A stretch of DNA of 64,000 nt, from positions 3,288-67,287 of the forward strand of contig JBCCQJ010000001.1 of assembly GCA_039024395.1 (NCBI GenBank), in the 5' to 3' direction. The notes beneath the pieces were generated by a model. The model worked only from the letters and a program-made list of their open reading frames with translations. It was not told the DNA's origin and made no database searches. Position numbers and translations under genes: made by a program. Position 1 is the first letter of the stretch. Every line of letters begins with the position of its first letter. This document shows positions 34,286 to 61,902 of the stretch, piece by piece. Origin of the DNA: Bacteroidota bacterium (lineage in GTDB: Bacteria > Bacteroidota > Rhodothermia > Rhodothermales > Rubricoccaceae).

Positions 34286-34312
34286 CTGTAACATGTAACA
34301 TGTCATACAGGA
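34286..34312 (-). promoter_or_regulatory. site 1 of the conserved PUL motif (with a 7-bp internal duplication), 34 nt upstream of the start codon
   Basis: Plus strand CCTGTAACATGTAACATGTCATACAGG. The outer arms CCTGTA/TACAGG are palindromic. Confidence 0.5.
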
Positions 34313-34399
34313 CAATTGAGTATAGCGGCTGGAAACGGGACTCGCAAGCGCTTCCAGGAACGAGCGGCCTATTTGCAGCTCGGCCCTTCGGGGAGTGCC

Positions 34400-40682: not shown

Positions 40683-40745
40683 GGAAGCAGAGCCGCCGCG
40701 CCGCCCGGCCCCGAGGCGGGGCAGCACGGCCGAAGATCGGAAGCC

Positions 40746-46702: not shown

Positions 46703-49399
46703 TCAGCGCACGACGGTGAGCGTCTGGCTCTCCATCCCCGCCTCGGTGGCGGCTCGCACGAGGTAGACACCCGAGGCAAGGCTGGCAGCGTCGAGCGCGA
46801 GCGGATGCCCACCAGCGGCGAGCGGCCCCTCGTGGAGGACGGCCACACGGCGGCCGAGGGCGTCGAACAGCGCCACCTCCACCGAGGCGGCCGCCTCGAC
46901 CGTCAGGAGGAGGGTCGTGCGAGTGCGGACCGGGTTCGGGCCGGCCAGGGCCAGAGACAAGCCGCGCCGCGCCGGGTCACGCGGCTCCGAGGCGGTCGCG
47001 CCCACCGCCTCGGGGCCGACGTCGGCGGCGGTGAGCGGGGCGTAGAGGACGGGCGCGGACGGGTCGTACTCGTCGGCGCCCACGTCGGGCGTGACGCGGG
47101 TCTGCCCCTGCACATCGAGGGCTGGCGCGCCCGGCCCCGAGGCGGCCGCGTCGATGGCCGGCGAGCCAGCCGCGAGCAGCCACGGGAGGTCGCCACCGGC
47201 GAGGCCGGGGTCGGCCACGCGGATCTGCGCCTCGGGGGCCGTCACGCCGAGGGCGGCCGTGCCGGTGGGCCACATGAGGTTGTCCCGCCACGTCGGCGCT
47301 GTGGGCGCGGTGTAGACATGGATGAGGTCCGCCTCGGCGCCCTCGACGACGTTGTTGGCGAACGTGATCTGGCGCGGCGGGCGGGTGTAGCCGCTGCCCG
47401 TGTACCCGATCTCGATCCCGTGCGTGTTGCCGACGAGCGTGTTGTGGGCGATGAGCGCTCGCTGCGGCGTGAAGTGGCGCGTGAGGTCGGTCGTCGAGCC
47501 GTAGTCGGCGTCGCCGTTCGTGACGGCGAGCGGCGCGTCGAAGCGGGTGCCCGTGAGCCCGGTCATCACGTTGTTGACGATGACGTGGTCGTCGCCGTAG
47601 AACCGGATGCCGCCGGTTCCCTCGCGGCCCTCCCCCAGGAAGACGTTGCCCTCGACGAGCGTCCGGTTGCCGTGGCGCACCGAGAGCGTGCCCTGGCTCC
47701 GCCGGAACGTGTTGTAGCGGACGACGGCGTCGCTCGTCTTGACCGAGATGATCTCTGGGTCGCCGTCACACGCCTCGAACAGGTTGTGCTCGACGGTCGT
47801 GAATCCGCTCGAGAGCGACATGGCGCTCCACCCCACACGGATCGCCTCCTTCTCGTTCGTGGCTCGGGGGCCGGTGCGGAGGAAGTGGTTGTGGTCGATC
47901 CAGTCGTTCTGCGACGAGAGCGCATTCGGCGGCTCGGAGCCGTCGATGGTGATGAAGTTGCCCAGCTCGGCCTTGTCCTCGAACCGGTTATGGTCGATCC
48001 GGTTGTGGTCGCTGAACGGGACCCAGAGGTCGGACGTCCCGCCGACGACGATCCACTTGAGCGACGCCGTCTCCCCGAGGCGAAACACGTTCTGCGTGAT
48101 CCGGGCGTGCGAGGCGCTCTCCAGCTTGACGGCCGTCACGTCGGTGCCCGCGAACACAAAGCCCTGGATCGTGACGTGGGCTGCCTGCTTGATCGCGAAC
48201 GCGGACTCGCCGGTCAGCGTGACACCGCCGACGGTCTGAGCGCGGACCGTAACCGGGTGCCCCTCCACCCCGCCCTCACGGATCGAGACGAGGCCGATGT
48301 CGTAGGTCCCGTTGGCCATCTCGATCACGTCGCCGGGGCGGGCGTTCTCGAGCGCGTCCTCGAGCGCACTCCCCGAGGCGGCCGTCACCACGCGCGTCTC
48401 GGGCGGGGCGTTGGGGTCGGCGCAGACGAACGGGCGGAAGGCCAGCCGGTCGGTCACGGTGAATTGGATTTCGGCCGCCTCCGCCTCGGAGTCGCCGGTC
48501 CAGCCGCAGGCGACGAACCCGTCGTCGGGCGTGACGGTCGCCGTGACGACCGTGCCCTCGTCGTAGAGGACGCCCGGGCCGTCGTCAGGCGCCGTGCCCG
48601 CTGGGCTCAGCGCGACCGCCCCCGCCGAGGGCTCGAACACGACGACCGGGTACTGGGGGACCACCTCGGGGAAGGTGACCCCCGCCGGCGCCTCGGTGCC
48701 GACGGCGAGGCGGTCGATGCCGACGTCGGCCGAGCCCGAGGTGTCGTCGGAGCCGAGGTTGAGCGTGAGCGCGTGGTACTGACGCTCGCCGCCGGTGCGG
48801 TCCCCCGAGGCGGACGGCGTGTAGCTCTCGCGGAAGGCCACGGCGACCGGCTCGGCTGCGTTCAGGCTCACCTGGTACGTCCCCGCCTCGAAGTCGGTAC
48901 GGACGGTGATCCGGGTCCACGCGCCGACGGTGTAGCTCCCGATCGGGACCGCCGTGAAGGTGTCGAAGATGCGGACTTGCCCCGTGCCGGCCGCCGGCGT
49001 GTCGAAGTCGATCACGAAGGCCCGCTTGCGGCTGCCGCCGTAGAGGTCGACCCCGCTCAGGGTGAACCGGGCGGCGGACAGTTGGCGGACGTTGACCCAG
49101 AGGTCGGTGTAGACCACGCCCGGGATGCCGTCCTCCCGCCCGTCGAAGGCGACGTGGTCCACGCGGAGCCTCCCCGAGGTCGACACCCGGAGTCCCTGCG
49201 CTCCGTCCTCGACGTAGTCCGCACCTGACGTGACGGCGGCCGTGCCGCTCGCGACGGCCCAGCCGTTGCGGCCGTTCACCGAGGCGGCGGGGTAGCCTTC
49301 GGCGGCCTCGAACGAGGTCTCGATGGCCGTCGTCTGCGCCGCCGCGCCGCTCGCGAGGGCGACGAGGAGAAGCCAGCCCACCCTCATGCGGACGCGCAC
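46703..49399 (-). CDS. PL6-like lyase with a ~330-aa N-terminal extension and a T9SS C-terminal sorting domain
   Basis: NHFLRTGPRATNEKEAIRVGWS...DGDPEIISVKTSD...GTLSVRHGN. CTD LALAGPNPVRTRTTLLLT...VALFDALGRRVAVL...GVYLVRA...LTVVR. Confidence 0.8.
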   Translation of the reverse strand: MRVRMRVGWLLLVALASGAAAQTTAIETSFEAAEGYPAASVNGRNGWAVASGTAAVTSGADYVEDGAQGLRVSTSGRLRVDHVAFDGREDGIPGVVYTDLWVNVRQLSAARFTLSGVDLYGGSRKRAFVIDFDTPAAGTGQVRIFDTFTAVPIGSYTVGAWTRITVRTDFEAGTYQVSLNAAEPVAVAFRESYTPSASGDRTGGERQYHALTLNLGSDDTSGSADVGIDRLAVGTEAPAGVTFPEVVPQYPVVVFEPSAGAVALSPAGTAPDDGPGVLYDEGTVVTATVTPDDGFVACGWTGDSEAEAAEIQFTVTDRLAFRPFVCADPNAPPETRVVTAASGSALEDALENARPGDVIEMANGTYDIGLVSIREGGVEGHPVTVRAQTVGGVTLTGESAFAIKQAAHVTIQGFVFAGTDVTAVKLESASHARITQNVFRLGETASLKWIVVGGTSDLWVPFSDHNRIDHNRFEDKAELGNFITIDGSEPPNALSSQNDWIDHNHFLRTGPRATNEKEAIRVGWSAMSLSSGFTTVEHNLFEACDGDPEIISVKTSDAVVRYNTFRRSQGTLSVRHGNRTLVEGNVFLGEGREGTGGIRFYGDDHVIVNNVMTGLTGTRFDAPLAVTNGDADYGSTTDLTRHFTPQRALIAHNTLVGNTHGIEIGYTGSGYTRPPRQITFANNVVEGAEADLIHVYTAPTAPTWRDNLMWPTGTAALGVTAPEAQIRVADPGLAGGDLPWLLAAGSPAIDAAASGPGAPALDVQGQTRVTPDVGADEYDPSAPVLYAPLTAADVGPEAVGATASEPRDPARRGLSLALAGPNPVRTRTTLLLTVEAAASVEVALFDALGRRVAVLHEGPLAAGGHPLALDAASLASGVYLVRAATEAGMESQTLTVVR

Positions 49400-49529: not shown

Positions 49530-51257
49530 TCATCGGGCGAGGGTGATCAGCCGGTAGTCCCTCCGGCCCTCGGCTTCCATCACGAGGAGGTACGTGCCGG
49601 TCGGGAGGCCGGCCCCATCGAGCGTGAACTCGGTCGTGCCCGCCGGGTAGGTCCCATTCAACACGCGCCGGACCTCGCGGCCGCTGATGTCGAACAGGCG
49701 CACCACCACCGAGGCGGGCGCGTCGAGCGCGAACGACACGGTGGTCGTGCTGTCGAACGGGTTGGGGAAGGTGGGCGCCAACCGCGAGGCCTGTCGCACC
49801 GGGGCATCGTCCGCCGCGACGCCCACGCGCCACACCGGACCGACGTCGTCGGGGTCGAGCGGGCCGAGCGTTCGGGGGTCGGCCGAGACCTCGTCGGCGC
49901 CGACGTCGGCCGTCGCGCGCGTCTGACCGTCCATGTCCGCCTCGGGGGCGAACGCGGCCGCGGCGGCGTCGACGAGCGGGCTCGTGGCCGACGGGCGCAA
50001 CAGGCCGTCGGCTCCCTCTTCCAGCTCGGGGTTGGCGAAGGTGACGCCGTCTGGGAAGTCGCTGCTCGGCTGGCCGAAAAACACATTCCCAGACCACTCC
50101 GAGGTGCCGACCGGCTCCAGGTCCACATCGATGATCGGCGCGCTCAGCCGCGTCTGGACGGCGTTGTTGACGACCGTGATGTCCTCCGGAGGAAGCGACT
50201 GGTCGCTGCTGTTGCCGACCCCGATCACGAACGTGCGGTCCGTGTTGACGAACGTGTTGTGGGCCACGAGCGGCCGCTTGACCTGGAAGTAGCGGTTGAG
50301 CGGCGAGTTCGGGACGCCCTGCACCATGGAGAGCGGGGCCGAGTAGCCCGTCCCGCGGAGCCCGAGGAAGTAGTTGTTGACGACCCGGTGATCCTCGCCG
50401 ATGATGCGGACGCCGCCCGTGCCAGACACCCCCTCGCCCAAGAAGAAGTTGCCCTCGACGAGGCAGTCGTTCCCGTGGCGGAGCGTGAGCGTGCCCTGGG
50501 CGCGGCGGAAGGTGTTGCTCCGGTAGACGTTGCCGTTCGACTTGTTGGAGATGATCTCGATCTCCCCGTTCGTCTCCGTGAACAGGTTCCGCTCGACGAC
50601 CACGTTCGCGTACTGCATCGACCGGCCGCTGGTGCCGATGCGGATCGTCTCGGCGCCGTTGTCGCCGAACTCGGGCCGCGGGCCGAAATGGTTGCGGTCG
50701 ATCCGGTGCTCCGGCGGATCGCCGCCGGTGACGAGCCACACCACGAGGAGCGCGCCCTCGTTCGTTTTGCCGGCGAAGTAGCAGTGGTCGACCCGGTTGA
50801 AGCGGCCGTACAGCGAGACCCACTTGTACTCGGTGCGGACGTTGGCCGGGTTGTAGTCGACGACGGTGCAGTTCGTCAGCCGGCTGTGGTTGGCGAGGTC
50901 GCTCGACGACCGCCGAAACTGGATGACCGGTCTCCCGTCAGGGAGCGCCCCGTTCTCGAAGCGCAGCCCGTCCACCTTCAGGTAGTCCCCGCCGATCGAC
51001 AGGTTGGACGAGCCCGTCAGAATCACCTCGCCCGGCGTCTCGGCGCGGAGCGTGATCGTGTCGCCCACGACGCCGTCGGCGTCGAAGTTGATGGGCGTGT
51101 CTTCCCACGTCCCGTTCGCCATCGTGATGACGTCGCCCGGTTCGGAGGCTCGGACGGCCGCGCCCAGCTCGGCGGCCGTCGTCACGAAGCGGTCGGTCTG
51201 GGCGTGCGCGCCCGCCGCCACCGAGGCGGTCAGCACCAGGGCAAGGAGGAAACGCAT
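49530..51257 (-). CDS. PL6 family alginate lyase with a T9SS C-terminal sorting domain
   Basis: Signal MRFLLALVLTASVAAGAHAQ. NHFGPRPEFGDNGAETIRIGTS...NGEIEIISNKSN...GTLTLRHGN. CTD FPNPFDSTTTVSFAL...VRLFDISGREV...GTYLLVMEA. Start trimmed to 51257 (TGATG overlap). Confidence 0.85.
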   Translation of the reverse strand: MRFLLALVLTASVAAGAHAQTDRFVTTAAELGAAVRASEPGDVITMANGTWEDTPINFDADGVVGDTITLRAETPGEVILTGSSNLSIGGDYLKVDGLRFENGALPDGRPVIQFRRSSSDLANHSRLTNCTVVDYNPANVRTEYKWVSLYGRFNRVDHCYFAGKTNEGALLVVWLVTGGDPPEHRIDRNHFGPRPEFGDNGAETIRIGTSGRSMQYANVVVERNLFTETNGEIEIISNKSNGNVYRSNTFRRAQGTLTLRHGNDCLVEGNFFLGEGVSGTGGVRIIGEDHRVVNNYFLGLRGTGYSAPLSMVQGVPNSPLNRYFQVKRPLVAHNTFVNTDRTFVIGVGNSSDQSLPPEDITVVNNAVQTRLSAPIIDVDLEPVGTSEWSGNVFFGQPSSDFPDGVTFANPELEEGADGLLRPSATSPLVDAAAAAFAPEADMDGQTRATADVGADEVSADPRTLGPLDPDDVGPVWRVGVAADDAPVRQASRLAPTFPNPFDSTTTVSFALDAPASVVVRLFDISGREVRRVLNGTYPAGTTEFTLDGAGLPTGTYLLVMEAEGRRDYRLITLAR

Positions 51258-52663
51258 CAGCGGGAGAATGGCAGGGCATAGGCCGCCTCGAAGAAGACGG
51301 CATGGCGCGTGACCGAGTTGTCGTTGCCGTTCGAGAGCCACAGGTCCTCGTAGCGGAGGCTCGACAGCTCGTAGGTCACGTCGAGGGCCACCGGCCCGAG
51401 CGCGAGACCCACGCCGGCTCCGAACACGTCGGCCCGTGCGGGCCGGTCGAGCAGCGCCGCGCCGGCCGGAGCGAACGCCTGGGCCTGCTCGCGGTAGCCG
51501 CCTCGGAGGGCGAGTCCGTCGAACGCCTGGAACTCGGCCCCGAGGTGGACGGTGCTCCCGCTCACCCACGGCTGGACCGCCTCGGTGGAGTCGGCGTAGA
51601 GGACCTCCGCGCTGCCAAGCGCGCGGAGGTCGACGTCGGCGGCGACCACGAGCCGGTCGCTCGGCCGAACGGAGGCGCCGACCGTGAACGCAGAGGCGAA
51701 CTGAACCTCGTCGGTGCCGGCCGTGCCATCGCTCCGCGACCACTCGCGAGAGAGCGTGTAGCCGGGCTGCCAGACGGCGTCGAAGGCGAGAACCCCCGTC
51801 TCGAATCCACCCGCCAGGGCAAACCGCGTACCCGAGACGTCCGACGTCCCCGTCACGACGGTCTCGCCGCCCGTCGGCGCGGCGAGGCTAAAGCGGTTCT
51901 GGAAGCGGAGCGTGAACTCGCCCCGGTCGAGGACCTGCTCGGTGTCGTCGGACGAGCCGGTGAGGACCGTCGCTGAGAGGCCGAGCGAGAACGGGCCGCG
52001 GGCGAGCGCGAGCGCCGGCGTGATGCCGTAGACGGCGCCGGTGCGCTGGCGGCTGAACTGTGCCCACCCGACGAGGAGCGAGTCGCCGTCCTGGATGCGC
52101 GGGATCGGCTCCGGCCGGATCTCCCCGATGTTGGGGTCGAGCGCGTTGTTGTTCTGGAAGTAGTGATCGAGGTCGGCCACCTGCGCCGCCCCGAGCCCGG
52201 CCGTCAGTTCCACCCCGCCGGGCGCAAACGGGAGCGGGACCGCTACCGACCCCAGCGTCGGTCGCACCGACGACAGGTTCTCGTCCCAGTCGGGCGTGAT
52301 GTCGTCGAAGGCCCGCGTCGGGTTGGGCGAGGTCGGGTCGTTCTCGAAGATCAGACTCAGCTCGAGGTAGAGCCGGTTGGGCACCCACGTCTGGTCCTGG
52401 CTCAGCGCCTGCGCGACGGCTCCGCCCCCGAGGCGGGCCTCCGCCTCGGTGAGGTGGCGGAGCGCGGCCGGGTTCGAAAAGAGAGCCGCCGACGTGGCGA
52501 GGCCGCTGGCGCGGACGCCACCCATCGCGCGGGCCCGGGCGCCCACGGCCTCCTGCCGGTCGAGCCCCTGGATCGAGAGCGGGGCGGCGGCGTCCTGAGC
52601 CGCCGCCTCAGGGGTCGCGAGCGACGCCAGGGCGACGAGGACGAGGAGCGTACGAATCGGCAT
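51257..52663 (-). CDS. outer-membrane beta-barrel protein (FadL/PorV-like), function unknown
   Basis: Signal MPIRTLLVLVALASLATPEAAAQ. ARARAMGGV...ALFSNPAAL motif. Start trimmed to the ATG at 52663, because the upstream part of the ORF is the antisense of the repeat. Confidence 0.7.
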   Translation of the reverse strand: MPIRTLLVLVALASLATPEAAAQDAAAPLSIQGLDRQEAVGARARAMGGVRASGLATSAALFSNPAALRHLTEAEARLGGGAVAQALSQDQTWVPNRLYLELSLIFENDPTSPNPTRAFDDITPDWDENLSSVRPTLGSVAVPLPFAPGGVELTAGLGAAQVADLDHYFQNNNALDPNIGEIRPEPIPRIQDGDSLLVGWAQFSRQRTGAVYGITPALALARGPFSLGLSATVLTGSSDDTEQVLDRGEFTLRFQNRFSLAAPTGGETVVTGTSDVSGTRFALAGGFETGVLAFDAVWQPGYTLSREWSRSDGTAGTDEVQFASAFTVGASVRPSDRLVVAADVDLRALGSAEVLYADSTEAVQPWVSGSTVHLGAEFQAFDGLALRGGYREQAQAFAPAGAALLDRPARADVFGAGVGLALGPVALDVTYELSSLRYEDLWLSNGNDNSVTRHAVFFEAAYALPFSR

Positions 52664-52680
52664 CGAGGGGGACGGATTAG

Positions 52681-52788
52681 AGTGGTTTACGCTGAGGTGC
52701 GGTACACGCATCTCGCCGGAACCGGTCGCTACGTTCGGGCAACGGCGTTTCTGACCCACGGACGTACTGAACCACGACTCCACGGACT
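52681..52788 (-). repeat. 108-bp repeat family, copy 3, filling an intra-operon spacer
   Basis: Aligns with 430-538 and 31799-31906. Its right-hand CTAG (52789-52792) contains the TAG stop of the PorV-like gene. The left boundary is TTAG. Confidence 0.6.
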
Positions 52789-53808
52789 CTAGGGGAGGGT
52801 CGCGCCGATCGTGAGGCGGTGGACCGCGCCGAGGAACTCGCCCATGTCCCCGTAGCTGTAGTCGATCCCGAAGCGGGCGCCGCTGAGGTCCGCGTTGAGG
52901 CCGGCCCCCAGCGTGATCCCCTCGGTGTCGTAGTTCATCTTGTAGCCGGCCCGGAGCGCGATCAGTTCGGCGAAGGCGTACTCCGCCCCGAACTGCATCT
53001 GCTGGTCGTAGTCGTTGGGCTGGTGGAGGTCGTAGGCGACCGTCAGCCGGTTCTGCGCGTTCTGCTGCACGATCCCGTTCGGCCCCACGAGATCGCCCGA
53101 CGCCCCGAGGCGGAACGTCAGCGGGGCCGCGAAGCGCTCCTCGACGAAGGCCACCTCGGGGCCGAAGTTCTGGACCGACATTGCGATGTCGAGCGAGCGG
53201 AACCCGGTCTCGTACTGAATCCCGAAGTCGAACAGGACCGCCCCGGCCGCTGTGTTCACGTCGCCGGCCGCCGGCCCGTCGTAGAGCGACTCGTAGGCGT
53301 ACTTGGCCGTCACGCCTGTCGCGAACCGGTCGGTCAGGCGCCGGGCGTACGAGACGCCGGCCACGAACGCCGTCGGGCCGAACGTGCTGCCGGTCAGGCC
53401 GGGGTTGTACGTCCCGTCGGGGTTGAACCCGAGGTTCTCCGTCCGCGTCTCGGCGATGCTGCCGTAGTCGACGGCCTGGACCTGGAACCCGATCTGGCCG
53501 AGCCCTCTCACCGAGGTGGCGTACCCGGCCGACGAGAGGCGGGTGTCGACGAGGTACGGGATGTGGGTCGCCGTGACGGCGTGGCCGGTCGTGCTGGCGA
53601 GGCCGGCCGGGTTCCAGAACAGGGCCTCGGCCCCCTTCGCCAGCCCGACGTAGGCGTCGCCCATGGCCGTCGCGCGGGCCGTCGGCATCACCTTGAGGAA
53701 CTGGAACGACGTCGTCCCCACCTTCTGAGCCGCCGCGGGCGGGGCCGCGACGAGGAGCGCCAGCGCGGCGATCGCCACGAGCCGGACAGGGTTTCGGGAG
53801 GCGATCAT
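52789..53808 (-). CDS. PorV/PorQ-like T9SS-associated outer-membrane protein
   Basis: VGTTSFQFLKVMPTARATAMGDAYVGLAKGAEALFWNPAGLA is the characteristic PorV/LptO N-terminal signature. 339 aa beta-barrel. Confidence 0.75.
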   Translation of the reverse strand: MIASRNPVRLVAIAALALLVAAPPAAAQKVGTTSFQFLKVMPTARATAMGDAYVGLAKGAEALFWNPAGLASTTGHAVTATHIPYLVDTRLSSAGYATSVRGLGQIGFQVQAVDYGSIAETRTENLGFNPDGTYNPGLTGSTFGPTAFVAGVSYARRLTDRFATGVTAKYAYESLYDGPAAGDVNTAAGAVLFDFGIQYETGFRSLDIAMSVQNFGPEVAFVEERFAAPLTFRLGASGDLVGPNGIVQQNAQNRLTVAYDLHQPNDYDQQMQFGAEYAFAELIALRAGYKMNYDTEGITLGAGLNADLSGARFGIDYSYGDMGEFLGAVHRLTIGATLP

Positions 53809-53812
53809 GACT

Positions 53813-56173
53813 CTAGCGGATGATGACGAACTTGCCTTGCGTCGACTCCCCGTCGGGCGTCGTCACGACGTAGAAGTAGACCCCCGAGGCGAGGCGCTGG
53901 TTGTTCCGCGTCTCCTGGAGGTAGGCCACCGAGTAGGTCGGGCTGTCGTGCTCGATCGTCTCGACGAGCTGGCCCGCAAACGAGTAGATCCGGATCGTGG
54001 CCTGGGCCGGGAGGCCGTAGAACCCCATCCGCAGCGACGACTCGCTCGCGCCCCCAAACCCCGACCCGACCACGAACGGGTTGGGCACCACATGGACGTC
54101 GCCGAGCTGGGCGACGGCCCCGAGCTGGGTCTCGAACGCGGTCACGTTCGTTCGGCCGCTCCGCCCCCCGTTCTCGTCGACCGAGACGACCGAGTAGTAG
54201 AACGTCTCGCCCACGACCGGCTCGGGGTCCGCGACGACGTAGTCGCCGGCCGGCACGAAGCTGTACGTGGCGCCGTCGTGGACGAACGCCGGGTCGCCGG
54301 CCTCGACCGTCGCGAGGGTCTCCCACGGCCCCGCCGGGTGCGTGCTCCGGGCCACCTCGTAGCGGGAGAAGGAGCCGGTGAGGCGCGGCGCGCTGAAGCC
54401 CTCGACCGCGGCCGACCAGTAGATCACGTTCTGGGCCTGGTCGTCGCTGGCCACGTTGAGCGCCGGCGCCGGGACCGGGATCGGGAGCCGGTAGACGCCC
54501 GCCTCGGGGTTCAGCTCGGGGCGGTTGTACGCGGGCGCGGCGAACTCCTCGCCGGTGTAGGCGAAGTAGGCCCGGTCGGCCACCTCGCGGACCGTCACCA
54601 CGTCGGAGTTGACGTAGTCGGGAAGGTCGTACTCCGAGAGGTAGGCACTCCCGTGGCGCTTGATAACCGTCCCCTCGTCCGCACCCGGCCCGTAGGGGAA
54701 GATGCCCGGGAAGACCGGGTTGCCCCCGTAGCGGACAGTGTCGGCGTACGAGGCGAGAGGAAAGAACCCGCGGCTGCCGTCTTCGCCGCAGTCCTCACCG
54801 CACGACCCACCCCAGTCGACGACGTAGTTGTCCTGATCGGGGGTCGTCCGCTCGCCTGGCGGGAGGTAGGCCTGCTCCGGCCGGATGGCCCCGAAGCCGA
54901 TCACCTCGGCCAGCGCGAACCGGGCGGTCTCGCCGATCTCGAGGTCGTACGGCCCGAAGACGGTGATCCGGCCGGTCGCCCACCGCGTCTGGCGGAAGTT
55001 GTAGCGCCCGGCACCCACCCAGTAGTCGAGGAAGTGCTGGTAGGCCGGGTCCTCGATGCCGCCCTCGGGCGGGATCACCGAGCCCTCGCGGAGCGGCGCG
55101 TTCTTGCGCGTGTCCACGCGGAGGTACTGCGTGAGCTTCGAGGCCCGGAGGTTGCTCGTCTCCTGGCGGACGAACCACGGCTGCTTGATCTTGACGCCGC
55201 CGCCATACTCCCCCGTCCACACGATCGCCGAGTCGCTCTGGGTGACGTCGACCAGCGTCCCGCTGTCGATCGTCGAGAGGTGCTCGGTGTCGAAGCGGAG
55301 CATCATGTAGCCCGGCGTGCCTGGGGCGTTGAGGCCGCCGCCGTTCTCGCCCGTCTCGGACCACTCGCGGTAGTAGACCGGGTCCGGCAGGCCCGTCTGG
55401 TGGTAGGTGTAGTTGAGGAACCGGAACGGGTCGAACCGGCCGCGCTGGTCGTTGTCCTGGTACTCGTCGTCGGTCCAGGCGCCGTAGGTCCGGAGGTTGC
55501 CGAAGAGGTTCGGCGCGAGCCCGTACGAGAACGCGATTGTGACGTCGGTGATGGGCTGGTCGGTGTCCGGGATCGTGTCGCCGTCGCGGTCGCCGGTGTA
55601 CTCGAAGGCGTACTCGTAGACGATCAGGTCGTCGTAGTCGGGGTAGCTCCAGGCCCGGCTCGTCCGCGTGACCGTGATGCCGACCGGCGTGGCCCACGAG
55701 GCGACGATGATCTCCTCGGCCTCGTCGGGATCGTAGGCCGGGTTGAGCGTGCCGTCGTCGAGGACGGGGTAGTTCTCGGTCCGCGTGATCGTGAGCGGGA
55801 ACGCCCACCGCCCAACGGTGATGTCCGGCTGCGAGGCCCCCACACCGCCGCTGAGCGCGTGGACGCGGTCGGTCGAGTCGGGGAGCTGGGCCGAGATGTA
55901 GACGCCGCCGCCGTTCGTGTAATGCTTGCCGTCGTAGTTGATGTCGTCGACGGTCACGCGGGAGTTGCCTGGCCACTCCATCATGGGCACCTCGGTGGCG
56001 TTGCCACCACCCCCTTGGTGGTAGGCCCGGCCGATCTCGCCGGTGTTGAAGACGGTCTCGTGGAGCATGCCCCGCGAGTGGATCTCGAACCGCCGCTGCG
56101 CCTCGGCCGGGAGCGCCGCGGCTACCCCGAGGAGGGCGACGAGGCCGGCGCGCATCGTGTGTCGGAGGGTCAT
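53813..56173 (-). CDS. 786-aa surface protein of unknown function with an FN3-like region and a CTD-like C-terminus
   Basis: Signal ...GLVALLGVAAALPAEAQ. C-terminus VVPNPFVVG...ATIRIYSFAGQLVETI...GVYFYVVTTPDGESTQGKFVIIR. 1-nt gap to the TonB receptor stop. Confidence 0.75.
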   Translation of the reverse strand: MTLRHTMRAGLVALLGVAAALPAEAQRRFEIHSRGMLHETVFNTGEIGRAYHQGGGGNATEVPMMEWPGNSRVTVDDINYDGKHYTNGGGVYISAQLPDSTDRVHALSGGVGASQPDITVGRWAFPLTITRTENYPVLDDGTLNPAYDPDEAEEIIVASWATPVGITVTRTSRAWSYPDYDDLIVYEYAFEYTGDRDGDTIPDTDQPITDVTIAFSYGLAPNLFGNLRTYGAWTDDEYQDNDQRGRFDPFRFLNYTYHQTGLPDPVYYREWSETGENGGGLNAPGTPGYMMLRFDTEHLSTIDSGTLVDVTQSDSAIVWTGEYGGGVKIKQPWFVRQETSNLRASKLTQYLRVDTRKNAPLREGSVIPPEGGIEDPAYQHFLDYWVGAGRYNFRQTRWATGRITVFGPYDLEIGETARFALAEVIGFGAIRPEQAYLPPGERTTPDQDNYVVDWGGSCGEDCGEDGSRGFFPLASYADTVRYGGNPVFPGIFPYGPGADEGTVIKRHGSAYLSEYDLPDYVNSDVVTVREVADRAYFAYTGEEFAAPAYNRPELNPEAGVYRLPIPVPAPALNVASDDQAQNVIYWSAAVEGFSAPRLTGSFSRYEVARSTHPAGPWETLATVEAGDPAFVHDGATYSFVPAGDYVVADPEPVVGETFYYSVVSVDENGGRSGRTNVTAFETQLGAVAQLGDVHVVPNPFVVGSGFGGASESSLRMGFYGLPAQATIRIYSFAGQLVETIEHDSPTYSVAYLQETRNNQRLASGVYFYVVTTPDGESTQGKFVIIR

Positions 56174-56174
56174 C

Positions 56175-59048
56175 TTAAAGGTCGACTGCGAGGCCGAGGA
56201 AGAGCGAGCGGGGCGCGTTGTCGTAGATCCGGAAGACCTGGTTGGCCGGCTCGGGGAAGCTGTCGCCGAGGTAGAGCTCGAGCGCCTCGTCGGGGTCGTC
56301 GGTGAACCCGTCCGGCGTGAGGTCTGACGGGTTGACGGCGAAGTCGTAGGCCCGCAGGTTGCGGACGTCGCGGAAGACGCGGTTGTAGTCGTAGACCCGC
56401 TGGTTGAACAGGTTGACGACTTCGAGGAAGAGCGAGCCCTCGGCGCCCGACGCGAGTTGGAACGGGCGCGTCACCTTCAGGCTGGTCTCATACTCCATCG
56501 GCGCGCGGGCGTCGGCGACGAGAACCTCCTGGCCGGCAGCGAATGACGTGTAGGGCCGGCCCGAGCGGACGCGCGTCCGCACTGAGGCGGTCCAGCGCCC
56601 GAGCGGGCGGACGCCGGCCACCTCGGGGCCGAGGTCGCGCGGCGTCGAGGCGGAGAGCTGGGCGATCAGGTTGTGCGTCCGGTCGAAGTCGAGGAGGATG
56701 TCGTTGAGCCCGATCCCGACGCGCTGCTCGTCGATCGTCCCGTCGAGGCCGCGGATGAACTGGGGGGGCGCGTCCTCGGCGCTCGACGTTCTGCCGGTGG
56801 CGACCTCGTAGCGGTAGCGAACCGACCCGCGCACGAGCCCGCGCCGACGCTGAACCGAGACCCGGAAGCCGCGGATGTCGGCGTAGTCGCGGTTGATGTA
56901 GGTCTGGTACGGAATGTCGACGCCCTCGCTGAAGAAGGCGAGCTGGACGAGGTTGCGAACGTCCTTGTAGTAGCCCGAGAGGTCCATCGTGAACCCGAGC
57001 GGGAGCTGCTGCGCCACGCCGACCTCGTACATCCGTGTCTCCTCGGGCTTGAGCTGGGGGTTGCCGAGCTGGATGATGGCGAGGTCGTTCGACCGCTGGA
57101 TCCGGCTCACGAGCGAGCGCTCGAACGGCGGCCGCTGGAGGAACGAGCCGTAGTTGAGGTGGAAGACGGTATTGACCGAGACCGGGAACGAGGCCCCGAG
57201 GCGGGGCTGGAGCCGGGCCACCCACGCGGTGTTGTCGACGAGCGCCAGGTCGGGGTCGCGCTCGGCGTTCTCGCCCACGGCCGGCTGCGTCGGGTCGAAG
57301 CCGGGGTTCGCGTACGGGTTGTACAGGTCCGAGAAGTAGTCCGTGTTGAGGTTGTAGGCGTCGAACCGGAGGCCGAGCCGGGCGATCAGGCCCTCGTACT
57401 CGATCTTGTCCTCGGCGAAAAGCCCGATCTCGAACGGGTACACGCTGAACGCCTCGTCCTGCGCGTCGGACGGGCTCGACAGGTTGAGCCGGTTGTCCAC
57501 GTCGAGGTGGTAGAGCCGCCCCTGGACGCCGACCTTGACGAGGTGGTTGTTCGTGACCTGGTTGTTATACGTCGCGTCGAGGGCGTACGTCGAGGCCTGC
57601 TCGTTGCGGAAGTCGTTCTCGGTGTAGCCGACGCGGAACTGGTCCGGCGTGTTGAAGAAGCGCCACACGCCGAGGTCGCTGGTGTCCTCGCGGAAGCGGG
57701 CCGGATCGAGGATGGTCGCGCCCGTCTCGTAGTCGTTGCGGAGGACGCTCACCGAGACATCGGCGAAGCTGGACGGGTCGAGGACGACAGCCAACCGGGC
57801 TGAGGCGCCGAGCGTGGTCTCGTCGACCTGGGCGAATCCGCGCTCGCGGTCCCAGAGGTACTGCCAGAAGCTGCTCGTGAACTCGAACCCGCGGACCCGG
57901 TTGAAGGCGCCGGCGAGCTGCAACGAGGCGGCATCCGAGAGGGCAACGCGGGCGCTCCCGAGAAGCTGGCGCGTCCGCTCGGGCTCGTTCGTCGGGAGGG
58001 CGTACCACTCGTCGGAGAACCGCCCGCCGATGAAGACACGGACGCGGTCTGAGACCGGCCCGCCGACGGAGAGGTCGAACTGGGTGTCCCACACGTCGTC
58101 GTACTCCGTGTTCAGCTCCTCGCGGGCCTGCGCCCAGACGGCCTGCGCGATCTCAGCGGCCTGGAGGCTGTCCTGGGCTGTGTCGAGGCCGTAGGCGCTG
58201 CAGAAGCTGAGGCCGATCGAGCACGAGAAGAGACCCTCACCGCTGTCGCCGCCCCACTCCTCGACCGTGTCGAAGGCGAGGAGGTACGGGTTGTTGTCGA
58301 GGCTGAAGACACTCCCCCCGAAGTGCTTGTAGCCCGGCGCCCGGACGCGAAGGCTTCCCGACCCCTCCCAGCGGTCGAACCCGCCGGACTGGAGGGCCAT
58401 GTTGATGACGCCACTCTGCGCGTTGCCGTACTGGGACGGGAACCCGCCTGTGATGACCTCGACCTCCTCGAGGGCGCTCGCGATCGGGTCGAACGCGCGG
58501 GCCCCAGTAAACGGGTTGACGATGTTGATCCCGTTGAGGAGATAGAGCTCCTCGCCAGTCCGCCCGCCTCGGAAGTGGCCGTCGGTCGCCTCGACCGTCA
58601 GACCGATCACGTCGGTGAGCGAGTAGACGCCGGGCGCCTCGGCAACCTCGCGGGGCCGGATGATCTCGCTCGACGCCGTGCGCTCGGGCTCGATGTCGGG
58701 CCGCTCGGCCGTCACCACCAGGTCTCCCTCGATCGCGAGGTCCTCGGCAAGGAGAACGAAGTCGACCTCGGTGGTCCGGTCGTTGTTGACCACGACGCCC
58801 TCCTGCACCACGGTCTGGAGGCCGACGAATGCCGCCCGGAGATCGTACGTCCCGGGCGTCACGGTGAGGATGTTGTAGACGCCGTCGACGTCGGTCGAGG
58901 CGCCCTGCGTCGTCCCCACGATGAGCACGTTGGCCCCCGGGATGGGGGCGCCGTCTGCGTCGACGATCGTGCCGGTCAGTTTTCCGGTCTGAGCGTGGGC
59001 TCCGCTGGCGAGCGCGATGGCGAGAGCACCGAGCCAGAGTCGTTGCAT
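56175..59048 (-). CDS. TonB-dependent receptor with an N-terminal CarboxypepD_reg domain (SusC-like; no SusD partner)
   Basis: Signal MQRLWLGALAIALASGAHAQ. GKLTGTIVDADGAPIPGANVLIVGTTQGASTDVDGVY. Plug and barrel. Start trimmed to the ATG at 59048. Confidence 0.88.
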   Translation of the reverse strand: MQRLWLGALAIALASGAHAQTGKLTGTIVDADGAPIPGANVLIVGTTQGASTDVDGVYNILTVTPGTYDLRAAFVGLQTVVQEGVVVNNDRTTEVDFVLLAEDLAIEGDLVVTAERPDIEPERTASSEIIRPREVAEAPGVYSLTDVIGLTVEATDGHFRGGRTGEELYLLNGINIVNPFTGARAFDPIASALEEVEVITGGFPSQYGNAQSGVINMALQSGGFDRWEGSGSLRVRAPGYKHFGGSVFSLDNNPYLLAFDTVEEWGGDSGEGLFSCSIGLSFCSAYGLDTAQDSLQAAEIAQAVWAQAREELNTEYDDVWDTQFDLSVGGPVSDRVRVFIGGRFSDEWYALPTNEPERTRQLLGSARVALSDAASLQLAGAFNRVRGFEFTSSFWQYLWDRERGFAQVDETTLGASARLAVVLDPSSFADVSVSVLRNDYETGATILDPARFREDTSDLGVWRFFNTPDQFRVGYTENDFRNEQASTYALDATYNNQVTNNHLVKVGVQGRLYHLDVDNRLNLSSPSDAQDEAFSVYPFEIGLFAEDKIEYEGLIARLGLRFDAYNLNTDYFSDLYNPYANPGFDPTQPAVGENAERDPDLALVDNTAWVARLQPRLGASFPVSVNTVFHLNYGSFLQRPPFERSLVSRIQRSNDLAIIQLGNPQLKPEETRMYEVGVAQQLPLGFTMDLSGYYKDVRNLVQLAFFSEGVDIPYQTYINRDYADIRGFRVSVQRRRGLVRGSVRYRYEVATGRTSSAEDAPPQFIRGLDGTIDEQRVGIGLNDILLDFDRTHNLIAQLSASTPRDLGPEVAGVRPLGRWTASVRTRVRSGRPYTSFAAGQEVLVADARAPMEYETSLKVTRPFQLASGAEGSLFLEVVNLFNQRVYDYNRVFRDVRNLRAYDFAVNPSDLTPDGFTDDPDEALELYLGDSFPEPANQVFRIYDNAPRSLFLGLAVDL

Positions 59049-59057
59049 GGAGGAGAG

Positions 59058-59069
59058 GGAAGCGCTTCC
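59058..59069. promoter_or_regulatory. perfect 12-bp palindrome GGAAGCGCTTCC in the receptor leader
   Basis: 10 nt upstream of the ATG. Related copies at 44228-44239 and 34344-34355. Confidence 0.4.
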
Positions 59070-59083
59070 GATCCCCGAACGTA

Positions 59084-59108
59084 CCTGTAACATGTCATAC
59101 AAGTCAAG
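59084..59108 (-). promoter_or_regulatory. site 3 of the conserved PUL motif, 36 nt upstream of the receptor start codon
   Basis: CCTGTAACATGTCATACAAGTCAAG (minus strand: CTTGACTTGTATGACATGTTACAGG). Confidence 0.55.
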
Positions 59109-59154: not shown

Positions 59155-59377
59155 TCAAGTAGCGAATCTCGTGGGTTGGCGAAAAGGGGCATGGAGGGGC
59201 TCCATGTCGAGGTAGCGGCGCTGGCACCCGTCCTCGGAGACTCGCAGCAGCACAGCCGATGCCAGCGTCTCCCCGCTCTGCCCGCTCGGGAATACACCCA
59301 CGACGCGCGTGCGACGCTTGACCTCCCGCATGACCCGCCCGACGAGTCTCTGAAGCACCTCGCGCGAGCCCGTGATG
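59155..59377 (-). pseudogene. IS256-family (mutator-type) transposase relic, C-terminal ~70 aa only
   Basis: ...TGSREVLQRLVGRVMREVKRRTRVVGVFPSGQSGETLASAVLLRVSEDGCQRRYLDMEPL matches the recalled C-terminal pattern (E.LN.EIKRRT.VVGIFPN....RL..AVL.E..E.W...RYL.M). Confidence 0.6.
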
Positions 59378-59379
59378 GC

Positions 59380-59519
59380 TTCGACCTCGTGCGGGTGGAG
59401 GACCGGACGGCCTGGTTCGACGGGCTCACCTACCACCTCGTGGACCCGGATACGCTGCAGATCTGGGTGGCCCTTCGCGAGGGCGGCGCGGTCATCGAGG
59501 CGAGCCTCACCCTCCGCCG
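59380..59519 (+). repeat. right copy of the 140-nt direct repeat (orphan 3' fragment of the 28885..29412 gene family)
   Basis: Translates FDLVRVEDRTAWFDGLTYHLVDPDTLQIWVALREGGAVIEASLTLRR. No 5' part is present. It abuts the IS256 relic. Confidence 0.85.
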
Positions 59520-59569: not shown

Positions 59570-59800
59570 AGTGTGCGGACGTGCCCAGCAATGTGCGTCG
59601 GGGCTCGTCGACAGGTCGTAGGACGTGCCCAACGCCCCCGACACCAAGTTCCGCATTGCCTCGACGACGAAGCAGTTCACGGCGGCGCTCGTCCACCGCC
59701 TCGCCGAGGCGGGCCGGATCGATCTCGACGCTCCGATCTCGACCGTCCTCCCCGACTACCCGACGCCGCAGGGGACGCGCATCCCCCCACGTACCTCCTC
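59570..59800 (+). pseudogene. truncated/frameshifted serine hydrolase (beta-lactamase-like) fragment
   Basis: PDTKFRIASTTKQFTAALVHRLAEAGRIDLDAPISTVLPDYP (SxxK = STTK). The frame then decays, and most of the N-terminal region and the whole C-terminal region are missing. Confidence 0.5.
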
Positions 59801-59891
59801 AACCAGGACGTCGCCCAGGCCTCTGGCGCGACGACGCGTCGGTCCCAGAGCCGGGTCGGCCGATGAGCCGAGCGTCCGTACTTCCCCGATG

Positions 59892-59927
59892 AGCGCTGGT
59901 CGCGATGCGAGGGCCAGCGCTTTCTCG
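59892..59927 (+). terminator. degenerate copy of the 22525-22558 terminator
   Basis: AGCGCTGG-14 nt-CCAGCGCT followed by TTTCTCGT. Part of the duplicated module 59806-59927. Confidence 0.35.
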
Positions 59928-60007
59928 TGAGCGATGGCCTCTGGCGCGGTTGAGACCCGCTGGCGTCTGGCACACCGCCAGCGGGGGGACCTGGCGACCG
60001 CGAGGGG

Positions 60008-61186: not shown

Positions 61187-61203
61187 GGGAAGCCAGGAAG
61201 GGG

Positions 61204-61902
61204 TTACAGGAGAATGAGCCTCTGGCGGACGGCCTCGACGCGCGTGCGCCCGACAGGCACCTCGTCGCCAGAGGCCAGGACGGCGTGGTAACGGCTGCCT
61301 TCGCTGGCTCGAAGCCGGACGACCTCGTCCATGCGGACGAGGTACGAGCGGTGGACGCGCTCGAAGGTGGCGGGCAGCACCGCCAGCAGGCGGTCGAGCG
61401 ACTTGCTGTGGAGCCGGATAGAGTTGTCCCGCAAGACGAGCTCCGAGTAGGTGCCCGCCGCGCGGACGTAGGCCACGTCGGCCACGCGCACGAGGTCGAT
61501 GCACCCGGCGGAGCGGATGGCGAGCGAGGCGGCGGGGTGCTCGGCGCGAGCGCCGCGCAGGCGGTCGAGCGTGGTGCGCAGGCGCTCCGCGCCGAAGGGC
61601 TTGCCTACGAAGTCCAGCACGCCAAGGTCGAAGGCCTCGATGGCGCGCTCGGTGTGAGCCGACACCACGACGGTGTGAAACGGGCTCGCGGTCGAGGTCG
61701 CCAGCAGGTCGAAGCCGTCGAAGCCGTTCAGGTTGAGGTCCAGGAAGAGGACATCGATGTCGCGGCGGGTCAGGAGCGTCTCGGCCTCGTCCAGCGACGG
61801 GCAGGTCTCGATGGAGGCGATCTCGTCGCCCGCAGCCTCGCGGAGCAGCCGCTCCAGGCGCCGGGCGATCACGACCTCGTCTTCGACGATCAGCATGCGC
61901 AT
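61204..61902 (-). CDS. LytTR family response regulator
   Basis: MRMLIVEDEVVIARRL...DVLFLDLNL receiver domain plus the LytTR DNA-binding domain (HRSYLV). Start overlaps the kinase stop. Confidence 0.88.
   Translation of the reverse strand: MRMLIVEDEVVIARRLERLLREAAGDEIASIETCPSLDEAETLLTRRDIDVLFLDLNLNGFDGFDLLATSTASPFHTVVVSAHTERAIEAFDLGVLDFVGKPFGAERLRTTLDRLRGARAEHPAASLAIRSAGCIDLVRVADVAYVRAAGTYSELVLRDNSIRLHSKSLDRLLAVLPATFERVHRSYLVRMDEVVRLRASEGSRYHAVLASGDEVPVGRTRVEAVRQRLILL

What the first reader, a model, noticed from the sequence alone, without database searches (positions are those of the whole stretch)
51257..59108. SusD-less TonB-receptor operon with an embedded PorV-like gene, a CTD-tagged 786-aa protein and a second barrel: a possible alternative glycan-capture module
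Seen:
- A tightly packed minus-strand run begins with a CarboxypepD_reg TonB receptor (56175..59048).
- One nucleotide later comes a 786-aa secreted protein with an FN3-like region and a T9SS-CTD-like tail (53813..56173).
- Four nucleotides later comes a protein with the PorV/LptO N-terminal signature (52789..53808).
- A FadL/PorV-like barrel follows (51257..52663), overlapping by TGATG with a CTD-bearing PL6 lyase. A second CTD-bearing PL6-like lyase comes after that.
- No SusD-like (TPR lipoprotein) gene is present anywhere in the locus.

Established: in canonical Bacteroidota PULs SusC pairs with SusD, and PorV shuttles or binds CTD cargo of the T9SS.

Inference: a PUL-dedicated PorV paralog next to a CTD-tagged unknown protein and the receptor may tether the 786-aa protein and/or the lyases at the surface as a functional substitute for SusD and surface glycan-binding proteins. 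I am not aware of a described mechanism for this gene combination.
Basis: partly seen in the sequence, partly recalled or inferred. Interest (0 to 1): 0.75.

Follow-up and report, generated by a model that had tools for sequence, protein, structure and literature searches.

The report
Alginate uptake operon with PorV-anchored partner
A four-gene outer-membrane operon (TonB-dependent receptor, a 786-aa secreted protein, and two PorV-type barrels) heads an alginate-degradation locus, keeps the same gene order across several bacterial phyla, and probably does the job SusD does in classical Bacteroidota loci, though its function has never been tested.

Summary
On the minus strand lie a CarboxypepD_reg TonB-dependent receptor (TBDR), a 786-aa protein with a T9SS type A C-terminal domain (CTD), a PorV/PorQ-family barrel, a second barrel and two CTD-bearing PL6 lyases. 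No SusD homolog is present.

New findings:
- The order TBDR, 786-aa protein, PorV-like, second barrel is kept in every related locus with enough flanking sequence (about 80 species genomes from Rhodothermales, Ignavibacteria, Calditrichia and Marinimicrobia). Nearly all sit in alginate loci.
- Distant relatives form the same three-gene core next to non-glycan genes in Latescibacteria-like genomes.
- The second barrel is itself a divergent PorV homolog.
- The 786-aa protein has a beta-rich N-domain with no close solved structure, then an FN3 domain and the CTD.
- Its CTD is its most conserved region. In the neighbouring lyases the CTD is the least conserved region.

Best reading: the T9SS exports the protein, its cognate PorV-like barrel holds it through a retained CTD, and it serves the receptor as an alginate-capturing partner.

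The same genes appear as unexplained "hypA–C" in the published Rhodothermus marinus alginate locus. I found no functional proposal in print.

The parts
56175..59048 (-). TonB-dependent receptor, 957 aa: signal peptide, CarboxypepD_reg N-terminal domain, TonB-box-like DLVVTA, plug and barrel. Not a SusC-family member.
   Evidence: Pfam PF13620, PF07715 and PF00593. SusC model TIGR04056 scores 52 bits against a cutoff of 368, on the N-terminal domain only. In the PDB only the N-terminal domain matches SusC.
53813..56173 (-). 786-aa secreted protein (P786). It belongs to a conserved family with no Pfam model and is homologous to hypA of the R. marinus Alg-PUL by gene order, size and annotation.
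   Evidence: More than 537 homologs, 40-50% identical over the full length across phyla. AF2 model pLDDT 90.4, pTM 0.88. No PDB sequence relative.
54494..56098 (-). P786 N-terminal domain, residues 26-560. Beta-rich super-sandwich-like fold with no close solved relative.
   Evidence: AF2 pLDDT 91.7, pTM 0.93. Foldseek finds only weak matches (TMq up to 0.29) to GH94, GH116 and GH65 glycosidases/phosphorylases and one polysaccharide lyase; I take the matched part to be their N-terminal beta-sandwich domains. Profile search: 288 representatives at E<=1e-3 among 1.84 billion.
54104..54481 (-). P786 FN3-like domain, residues about 565-690.
   Evidence: Foldseek top hits are tandem FN3 arrays. No Pfam FN3 hit.
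53816..54097 (-). P786 T9SS C-terminal domain, residues about 693-786, beginning at the VVPNPF motif. It is the most conserved region of the family.
   Evidence: TIGR04183 31.4 bits; C-terminal 90 aa of the PorZ model NF052228 26.7 bits. Majority-residue fraction 0.74, against 0.63 for the N-domain and 0.58 for FN3. Median identity 61% against 46%.
52789..53808 (-). PorV/PorQ-family 339-aa outer-membrane barrel (hypB equivalent). Proposed cognate shuttle or anchor for the P786 CTD.
   Evidence: NF033709 211 bits; below the equivalog cutoffs for PorV and PorQ. Best PDB match is F. johnsoniae PorV 6h3i_F, E 1.2e-7. Directly downstream of P786 in 79 of 79 loci.
51257..52663 (-). Second barrel, 468 aa (hypC equivalent): a divergent PorV-superfamily barrel with long insertions relative to the PorV-like protein. 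Partner unknown.
   Evidence: hhalign against the PorV-like family: 99.1% probability, E 1.5e-18, full length. Orthologs hit Pfam Toluene_X. Present in 73 of 73 loci. Absent from the distant three-gene modules.
49530..51257 (-). PL6 alginate lyase with a T9SS type A CTD. Its start overlaps the stop of the second barrel (TGATG).
   Evidence: PF14592 343 bits; TIGR04183 29 bits. Junction read.
46703..49399 (-). Second PL6-type lyase, 898 aa, with an N-terminal extension and a type A CTD.
   Evidence: PF14592 183 bits; TIGR04183 28 bits.
44342..45949 (+). Third PL6 lyase, no CTD, on the opposite strand.
   Evidence: PF14592 591 bits.
41928..44189 (-). PL17-type oligo-alginate lyase (Alginate_lyase plus Hepar_II_III_C).
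41119..41874 (-). Short-chain dehydrogenase; likely DEHU reductase by locus context.
   Evidence: adh_short_C2 219 bits.
40746..41114 (-). KdgF-like cupin.
   Evidence: Cupin_2 53 bits.
38070..40727 (-). Heparinase II/III-like lyase with a CTD-like FlgD_ig tail. Same size and domain make-up as PL39 AlyRm3 of R. marinus.
   Evidence: PF07940 and PF13860. Compared with the description in PMC9530828.
35179..38070 (-). TRAP transporter genes DctP (37012..38070), DctQ (36482..37015) and DctM (35179..36474): inner-membrane uptake of uronates.
30222..34315 (-). CTD-bearing protein of unknown function (32681..34315), KDPG aldolase (31907..32581) and PfkB-family KDG kinase (30222..31382).

Best explanation
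The four genes form one conserved outer-membrane module that captures and imports alginate fragments.

Shown:
- They are tightly linked, with 1-nt and 4-nt spacers and a stop/start overlap.
- They keep the same order in all related loci.
- They sit at the head of a complete alginate pathway: PL6 x3, PL17, a PL39-like lyase, KdgF, an SDR, TRAP DctPQM, KdgK and KdgA.
- The receptor is not a SusC and no SusD is present.
- P786 carries a Sec signal and a T9SS type A CTD.
- Both small barrels are PorV-superfamily members.
- TBDR, P786-like and PorV-like genes also travel together, as homologs, in distant modules with different neighbours.

Inferred mechanism:
1. P786 is exported by Sec and then by the T9SS.
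2. Its unusually conserved CTD is not treated as a disposable signal. It stays bound to the dedicated PorV-like barrel encoded directly downstream, as PorZ stays on PorQ, PorU on PorV, and type B cargo on PorP/SprF barrels.
3. This holds P786 on the cell surface beside the TBDR.
4. Its large beta-sandwich N-domain binds alginate chains or oligomers released by the T9SS-secreted lyases and passes them to the receptor. That is the role SusD and surface glycan-binding lipoproteins play in classical PULs.
5. The TBDR moves oligomers into the periplasm, PL17 and KdgF process them, and the TRAP system takes up the monomers.

The second barrel is specific to the alginate version. It probably joins the complex or anchors another surface component.
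For: - Gene calls and domains.
- Collinearity: TBDR upstream in 77/78 scripted (78/78 after checking L008), PorV-like 79/79, second barrel 73/73, plus six loci reached independently.
- Link to alginate: 43 of 54 loci with at least 7 kb downstream carry a PL6 gene. Two of the other eleven were checked and carry PL17, SDR, MFS and GntR genes.
- Co-diversification: in distant modules all three core proteins hit the cassette profiles (TBDR 243-390 bits, P786-like 128-156, PorV-like 165-195) while the neighbours change.
- CTD conservation is inverted: P786 CTD 61% median identity against 46% for its N-domain, whereas the PL6 CTD is 30% against 57% for the catalytic domain.
- CTDs of the family match the C-terminus of the PorZ model.
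- The PorV-like protein matches solved PorV.
- Precedents for retained CTDs and for cognate barrels encoded downstream of their cargo: PMC10202324 and PMC12618676.
- P786 is not SusD-like but has a fold type associated with carbohydrate enzymes.
- No terminator-like site above chance inside the operon.
Against: - There is no direct evidence for CTD retention, for a P786/PorV-like or P786/TBDR contact, or for alginate binding.
- Formally the CTD is type A, and the general PorV normally handles type A CTDs before PorU cleaves them.
- The matches to the PorZ CTD are weak (E 1e-7 to 5e-3).
- The N-domain's structural matches are poor (TMq up to 0.29), so a glycan-binding role is only suggestive. 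Its many invariant polar residues would also fit an enzyme.
- The role of the second barrel is unexplained.
- Distant modules lie beside non-glycan genes, so the family is not intrinsically a glycan binder.
- I could not locate the housekeeping porV/porU of this organism.
Confidence: 0.55

Rival explanations
1. Dedicated shuttle only. The PorV-like barrel is needed just to pull P786 out of the T9SS translocon, as SprF does for SprB. P786 is then cleaved and either attached to A-LPS or released, and acts as a free or surface alginate-binding or processing factor with no stable complex with the TBDR.
For: The CTD passes the type A model. Cognate shuttles encoded downstream of their cargo are established for secretion (PMC12618676). 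A low-confidence loop (residues 699-710) lies within or just before the CTD and could be a cleavage site.
Against: It does not explain why the TBDR gene stays fused to the pair in every locus, including distant modules with other neighbours. It also does not explain why the CTD is more conserved than the functional domains. PMC12618676 itself argues that stoichiometric cognate shuttles have a post-secretion role.
Confidence: 0.2
2. P786 is an enzyme, for example an unrecognised alginate lyase, epimerase or deacetylase displayed at the surface, rather than a binding or lid protein.
For: There are many invariant charged and aromatic residues in the N-domain, such as H32, R34, E151, R173, D179, Y180, D182 and K346. 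The weak fold matches are to glycoside phosphorylases/hydrolases and one polysaccharide lyase. The core family is restricted to alginate loci.
Against: No match to any CAZy-type Pfam, NCBIfam or PDB sequence. In my reading the fold matches concern the non-catalytic beta-sandwich domains of those enzymes. Every locus already encodes CTD-bearing endolytic lyases. The distant relatives sit in non-glycan contexts.
Confidence: 0.13
3. The two small barrels are substrate channels, FadL- or KdgM-like diffusion pores for oligo-uronates or a hydrophobic co-substrate. They are unrelated to the CTD, and P786 is ordinary T9SS cargo.
For: Both barrels belong to the FadL/Toluene_X superfamily, whose founding members are transporters (PMC12578637).
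Against: The first barrel scores well above the cutoff of the PorV/PorQ family model and aligns with solved PorV. Alginate oligomers are hydrophilic polyanions, unlike FadL substrates. A TBDR is already present for uptake. The gene order, cargo then barrel, mirrors known cargo-shuttle pairs.
Confidence: 0.08
4. Coincidental neighbourhood. The PorV-like gene is the general housekeeping PorV that happens to lie next to a PUL.
For: None beyond family membership.
Against: Linkage in 79 of 79 loci across phyla. Two cassettes occur in single MAGs (L013 with L062, L045 with L069). Two paralogs of the 786-aa family lie on single 8.08- and 5.46-Mb contigs. Scores are far below the PorV and PorQ equivalog cutoffs.
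Confidence: 0.02

Closest known systems
R. marinus MAT378 alginate utilisation locus (Alg-PUL, GenBank ON640824; PMC9530828)
   Same: Same gene order and sizes: TonB-dependent receptor (2805 nt), hypA (T9SS type A sorting-domain protein, 2181 nt), hypB (PorV/PorQ family, 1056 nt), hypC (hypothetical, 1398 nt), PL6 alyRm1, then PL17, kdgR, kdgF and PL39. The lyases of that locus have been characterised biochemically.
   Different: A different genus; the window is a Rubrivirga-like MAG. The paper draws hypA-C as grey 'hypothetical genes' and proposes no function. It does not note that they are conserved, that SusD is absent, or that hypC is a PorV homolog.
SusC/SusD pairs of Bacteroidota polysaccharide utilisation loci
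   Same: A TonB-dependent transporter gene is followed at once by a gene for a surface-exposed partner, at the head of a CAZyme locus. The receptor shares the CarboxypepD_reg N-terminal domain.
   Different: The receptor fails the SusC family model (52 bits against 368). The partner is a beta-rich protein with a T9SS CTD, not an alpha-helical TPR lipoprotein. It would reach the surface by T9SS plus a barrel anchor, not by lipoprotein export. One or two extra barrels are part of the unit.
T9SS cognate cargo-shuttle pairs: type B CTD proteins with PorP/SprF-like barrels (SprB-SprF, Fjoh_3952-3951, PG1035-PorP)
   Same: The cargo gene is directly followed by a gene for a PorV-superfamily barrel. 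The pairing is proposed to give both secretion and final localisation or anchoring (PMC12618676, PMC9143113).
   Different: The CTD here passes the type A model, not type B (CHU_C only 18 bits against a cutoff of 27). The barrel is PorV/PorQ-family rather than PorP/SprF. The pair is fused to a TBDR and serves nutrient uptake rather than adhesion or gliding.
PorZ-PorQ and PorU-PorV of the T9SS attachment complex
   Same: Type A-like CTD proteins keep their CTD and stay bound to a PorV-family barrel (PMC10202324). The family's CTDs weakly match the C-terminus of the PorZ model. Two PorV-type barrels are encoded together.
   Different: P786 has no PorZ or PorU body; only the last 90 aa or so match. 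The barrels fail the PorV and PorQ equivalog cutoffs. The genes are part of a catabolic operon, not the secretion machinery.

Membership tests
Canonical SusC/SusD PUL | SusC/RagA-family TonB-dependent transporter (TIGR04056) | tested here: not met
   52.1 bits against a cutoff of 368.25. Only residues 23-114, the N-terminal domain, match. The PDB search agrees.
Canonical SusC/SusD PUL | Adjacent SusD/RagB-family TPR lipoprotein | tested here: not met
   No SusD-family Pfam hit in any of the roughly 30 window proteins scanned. The adjacent protein is beta-rich, with a signal-peptidase I type signal and no Cys.
Canonical SusC/SusD PUL | Co-located CAZymes and sugar catabolism genes for one glycan | tested here: met
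   PL6 x3, PL17, a PL39-like lyase, KdgF, SDR, TRAP, KdgK and KdgA.
T9SS type A cargo | Sec signal peptide plus a C-terminal type A sorting domain (TIGR04183 / PF18962) | tested here: met
   TIGR04183 31.4 bits against a cutoff of 23. Pfam PF18962 scores 18 bits, below its cutoff of 27. Signal peptide MTLRH...PAEAQ. Ig-like CTD fold matching the PorU and PorZ entries.
T9SS type A cargo | CTD removed by PorU and cargo linked to A-LPS or released | not testable with these tools
   Needs proteomics. The conservation pattern argues for a different fate.
Housekeeping PorV (NF033710) or PorQ (NF033711) | Score above the equivalog cutoff | tested here: not met
   PorV 83.5 bits against 250; PorQ 94.1 against 220.
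PorV/PorQ family (NF033709, PF19572) | Score above the family cutoff | tested here: met
   211.1 bits against 90; PF19572 41.1 against 27. The second barrel reaches it only by profile-profile comparison.
Type B CTD / PorP-SprF cognate pair | Barrel gene directly downstream of the cargo gene | tested here: met
   4-nt spacer in the window; 79 of 79 loci.
Type B CTD / PorP-SprF cognate pair | Type B CTD (CHU_C, PF13585) and a PorP/SprF barrel (PF11751) | tested here: not met
   CHU_C 18 bits against a cutoff of 27. No PF11751 hit for the window barrel, although some homologs carry precomputed PF11751 hits.
Proposed TBDR / P786-like / PorV-like module | The three homologous genes are collinear, whatever the neighbouring genes | tested here: met
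   for alginate loci. for non-glycan contexts in Latescibacteria-like genomes.
Proposed TBDR / P786-like / PorV-like module | Physical complex at the outer membrane | not testable with these tools

The most novel reading that the evidence does not exclude
Non-Bacteroidia FCB phyla (Rhodothermota, Ignavibacteriota, Calditrichota, Marinimicrobia, Latescibacterota, KSB1) may use a second, SusD-independent class of TonB-dependent uptake complex. A dedicated TBDR clade would pair with a roughly 750-aa beta-sandwich protein that the T9SS delivers and that a cognate PorV-like barrel holds permanently through an uncleaved CTD. The T9SS would then be an assembly route for nutrient-import machines, for alginate and, in paralogous modules, for non-glycan substrates.
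Probability: 0.4. Interest if true: 0.85.

Novelty: new variant of a known kind. Interest (0 to 1): 0.7.

Why it matters
PUL prediction tools and databases define glycan-uptake loci by SusC/SusD pairs, so loci of this type go unseen in abundant marine, sediment and soil lineages that degrade algal polysaccharides. If the module works as proposed, three things follow.
- There is an alternative way to build a surface-exposed receptor partner: T9SS plus a PorV-type anchor instead of a lipoprotein.
- The T9SS gains a role beyond secreting enzymes and adhesins.
- A protein family of several hundred members with no Pfam model gets a function.

The system can be tested directly, because the same genes (hypA-C) lie in the alginate locus of the cultured Rhodothermus marinus, whose lyases have already been characterised.

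Tried and rejected
- **SusD in disguise: rejected.** No Pfam or NCBIfam hit, and the AF2 model is beta-rich.
- **P786 as a known lyase or CBM: no support.** No support from Pfam, NCBIfam, a PDB profile search or Foldseek. The full-length Foldseek run was dominated by FN3/Ig hits, so I remodelled the N-domain alone; it still gave only weak matches.
- **Paralogs of the cassette elsewhere in the window:** none.
- **Literature:** ten searches found no functional description. Only PMC9530828 shows the genes, as hypotheticals.
- **Promoter and terminator scan of the operon:** nothing above chance.
- **Suspected IS256-type transposase remnant at 59155..59436(-):** no Pfam support, so dropped.

Full report
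**Observation**

The window has about 70% G+C. Its closest relatives are Rubrivirga (Rhodothermales); the 786-aa protein is 89% identical to that of Rubrivirga sp. IMCC45206.

| Gene | Coordinates | Main evidence |
|---|---|---|
| TBDR (CarboxypepD_reg, plug, barrel) | 56175..59048 | |
| 786-aa protein (P786) | 53813..56173 | 1 nt after the TBDR stop |
| PorV/PorQ-family barrel | 52789..53808 | 4 nt after the P786 stop; NF033709 211 bits (cutoff 90), PF19572 41 bits |
| Second barrel, 468 aa | 51257..52663 | 125-nt gap |
| PL6 lyase with type A CTD | 49530..51257 | its ATG overlaps the barrel's TGA |
| Second PL6+CTD lyase | 46703..49399 | |

P786 has a signal-peptidase I type signal with no lipobox Cys. 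It matches the type A sorting-domain model TIGR04183 at 31.4 bits against a cutoff of 23.

The wider locus is a complete alginate pathway:
- a third PL6 lyase and a PL17 lyase;
- a PL39-like Hepar_II_III lyase with a CTD;
- a KdgF cupin and an SDR;
- TRAP DctPQM;
- another CTD protein of unknown function;
- KDPG aldolase and KDG kinase.

None of the roughly 30 distinct window proteins scanned hits a SusD family. The receptor is not a SusC: TIGR04056 gives 52 bits against a cutoff of 368, on the N-terminal domain only.

**Conservation**

P786 belongs to a large family with no Pfam model. It has more than 537 homologs, 40-50% identical over the full length, in Rhodocaloribacter, Melioribacteraceae, Calditrichaeota and KSB1.

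A scan of one genome per species (185,579 genomes) found 280 loci, and I fetched the best 80. Searching their ORFs with the window proteins showed one arrangement throughout: TBDR, P786, PorV-like, second barrel, all on one strand and contiguous.

- TBDR upstream: 77 of 78 loci by the script. The one miss, L008, is a filter artefact, and one search shows the TBDR there.
- PorV-like downstream: 79 of 79.
- Second barrel: 73 of 73.

The record titles name Ignavibacteria/Melioribacteraceae, Rhodothermales, Calditrichia and one Neomarinimicrobiota. Six loci reached by other routes show the same order.

The context is almost always alginate or uronate use. Of 54 loci with at least 7 kb downstream, 43 carry a PL6 gene. 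I checked two of the other eleven; both carry PL17, SDR, MFS and GntR genes.

Two MAGs each hold two cassettes (L013 with L062, L045 with L069). The cassette's PorV-like gene therefore cannot be a single housekeeping PorV. It also falls far below the PorV (83.5 against 250) and PorQ (94 against 220) equivalog cutoffs.

**The parts**

The AF2 model of P786 is confident (pLDDT 90.4, pTM 0.88). It shows four segments:
- a large beta-rich N-domain, residues 26-560;
- an FN3-like domain, about 565-690;
- a short low-confidence loop;
- an Ig-like CTD.

Foldseek with the whole model returned only FN3/Ig matches, among them PorU (6za2) and PorZ (5m11). The N-domain modelled alone (pLDDT 91.7, pTM 0.93) gave only weak matches, with TMq up to 0.29. 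These were to GH94, GH116 and GH65 glycosidases/phosphorylases and one polysaccharide lyase; I take the matched part to be their N-terminal beta-sandwich domains. A family profile finds nothing in the PDB by sequence. P786 is thus a new family, not SusD-like in fold, with at most a loose likeness to carbohydrate-associated sandwich domains.

The PorV-like barrel aligns with solved F. johnsoniae PorV (E 1.2e-7). The second barrel looked FadL-like only weakly. A profile-profile comparison shows it is a full-length homolog of the PorV-like family (99.1% probability, E 1.5e-18) with large insertions.

**A clue to mechanism**

In the P786 family the CTD is the most conserved region. Its majority-residue fraction is 0.74, against 0.63 for the N-domain and 0.58 for FN3. 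Median identity to the window protein among the more distant members is 61%, against 46%.

In PL6 lyase homologs from the same set of loci the reverse holds: the CTD is 30% identical and the catalytic domain 57%. That is what one expects of a disposable sorting signal.

The CTDs of P786 and its distant relatives also hit the last 90 residues or so of the PorZ model (26.7 bits for the window protein; E 1e-7 to 5e-3 for others). PorZ and PorU are the known type A-like proteins that keep their CTD and stay bound to PorQ and PorV (PMC10202324). Type B cargo depends on PorP/SprF-like barrels encoded directly downstream, which also set its final location (PMC12618676). The order here, cargo then barrel with a 4-nt spacer, repeats that logic.

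**A wider module**

A profile of the N-domain searched against 1.84 billion representatives found 288 proteins at E<=1e-3, of which 37 were at E<=1e-30. These comprise about 25 full-length core clusters plus distant relatives of 700-850 aa that share the central region.

I looked up three of the distant relatives. Each is again flanked by a CarboxypepD_reg TBDR upstream and a PorV-like gene downstream. There is no second barrel, and the neighbours are not glycan genes: S-methyltransferases, PhyH, amidohydrolases and oxidoreductases.

All three proteins hit the cassette profiles: TBDR 243-390 bits, P786-like 128-156, PorV-like 165-195. One cluster includes a Latescibacteria protein, and two paralogs of the family share single 8.08- and 5.46-Mb contigs.

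So TBDR, P786-like and PorV-like genes have diversified together as a unit. This is the strongest available argument that they work as one machine. It also shows the core is not intrinsically glycan-specific.

**Interpretation**

I conclude, with about 0.55 confidence in the full mechanism, that this is a SusD-independent outer-membrane uptake module. The T9SS exports P786. Its conserved CTD keeps it on the cognate PorV-like barrel next to the receptor. Its N-domain captures alginate fragments made by the T9SS-secreted lyases for TonB-dependent import. The second PorV-type barrel is an add-on specific to alginate loci, and its partner is unknown.

That the four genes are one conserved functional unit for alginate use is well supported. 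Anchoring, contact with the TBDR and ligand binding are inferred.

The rivals are:
- a shuttle-only role for the barrel (0.2);
- an enzymatic role for P786 (0.13, compatible with anchoring);
- the barrels as channels (0.08);
- a coincidental housekeeping PorV (refuted).

**Prior knowledge**

Ten full-text searches found no functional account of this gene combination.

The arrangement itself is in print. The R. marinus MAT378 Alg-PUL figure lists tonB, hypA (T9SS type A sorting-domain protein), hypB (PorV/PorQ family), hypC (hypothetical) and alyRm1 (PL6), followed by further genes. hypA-C are coloured as hypothetical genes with no comment (PMC9530828). A run of TBDR plus three hypotheticals, two with a CTD, in the R. 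marinus xylan cluster (PMC6987092) may be analogous, but I could not check it.

I therefore rate this a new variant of a known kind. The components are known (TBDR, T9SS cargo, PorV-type barrels). The combination is conserved and uninterpreted, and it would matter for how glycan-uptake loci are recognised outside Bacteroidia.

Noticed in passing
window 59622..59930 (+): A truncated beta-lactamase-family fragment (Pfam PF00144, 58 bits, model positions 43-95 only) lies in the 0.9-kb gap just upstream of the TBDR. It is on the opposite strand to a full-length beta-lactamase-family gene at 60008..61504(-). This looks like a rearrangement scar in the presumed promoter region of the operon.
   Followed up: partly
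window 61204..63608 (-): A 7TMR-DISM_7TM/His_kinase sensor (61890..63608) and a LytTR response regulator (about 61204..61950) lie upstream of the locus. Related loci usually have a GntR/FCD regulator instead (L030, L086, L087). Whether this two-component pair controls the alginate operon here is unknown.
   Followed up: no
window 45953..46663 (+): A 236-aa ORF with strong coding signal (GC3 0.95) starts immediately after the plus-strand PL6 gene. It has no Pfam hit and its function is unknown.
   Followed up: no
window 32681..34315 (-): A 544-aa protein has a clear T9SS CTD (Por_Secre_tail and FlgD_ig) and an N-terminal body with no Pfam match. It sits between the TRAP transporter and the KDPG aldolase genes and is another uncharacterised secreted component of the alginate locus.
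   Followed up: no
window 3465..11235 (+): Three consecutive large MacB_PCD/FtsX-type permease genes (942, 797 and 816 aa) lie in tandem and are unrelated to the finding.
   Followed up: no
L049 1739..5944 (-): Next to the alginate cassette, a second and different pairing occurs on the opposite strand: a PorV-like gene (119 bits) directly upstream of a TBDR (237 bits), with no P786-like gene between them. TBDR and PorV-like associations may therefore come in more than one layout.
   Followed up: no
L088 1..3714 (-): The locus holding the distant module carries a second cassette-type TBDR (356 bits to the cassette TBDR profile) on the other strand, preceded by a 236-aa gene with no Pfam hit.
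   Followed up: no
L001 14823..21692; L003 14770..16191: In Ignavibacteria and Calditrichia loci the gene after the second barrel is often a CTD protein with DUF5123, DUF4957 or Flg_new_2 domains rather than a lyase. These could be further surface components of the system.
   Followed up: no
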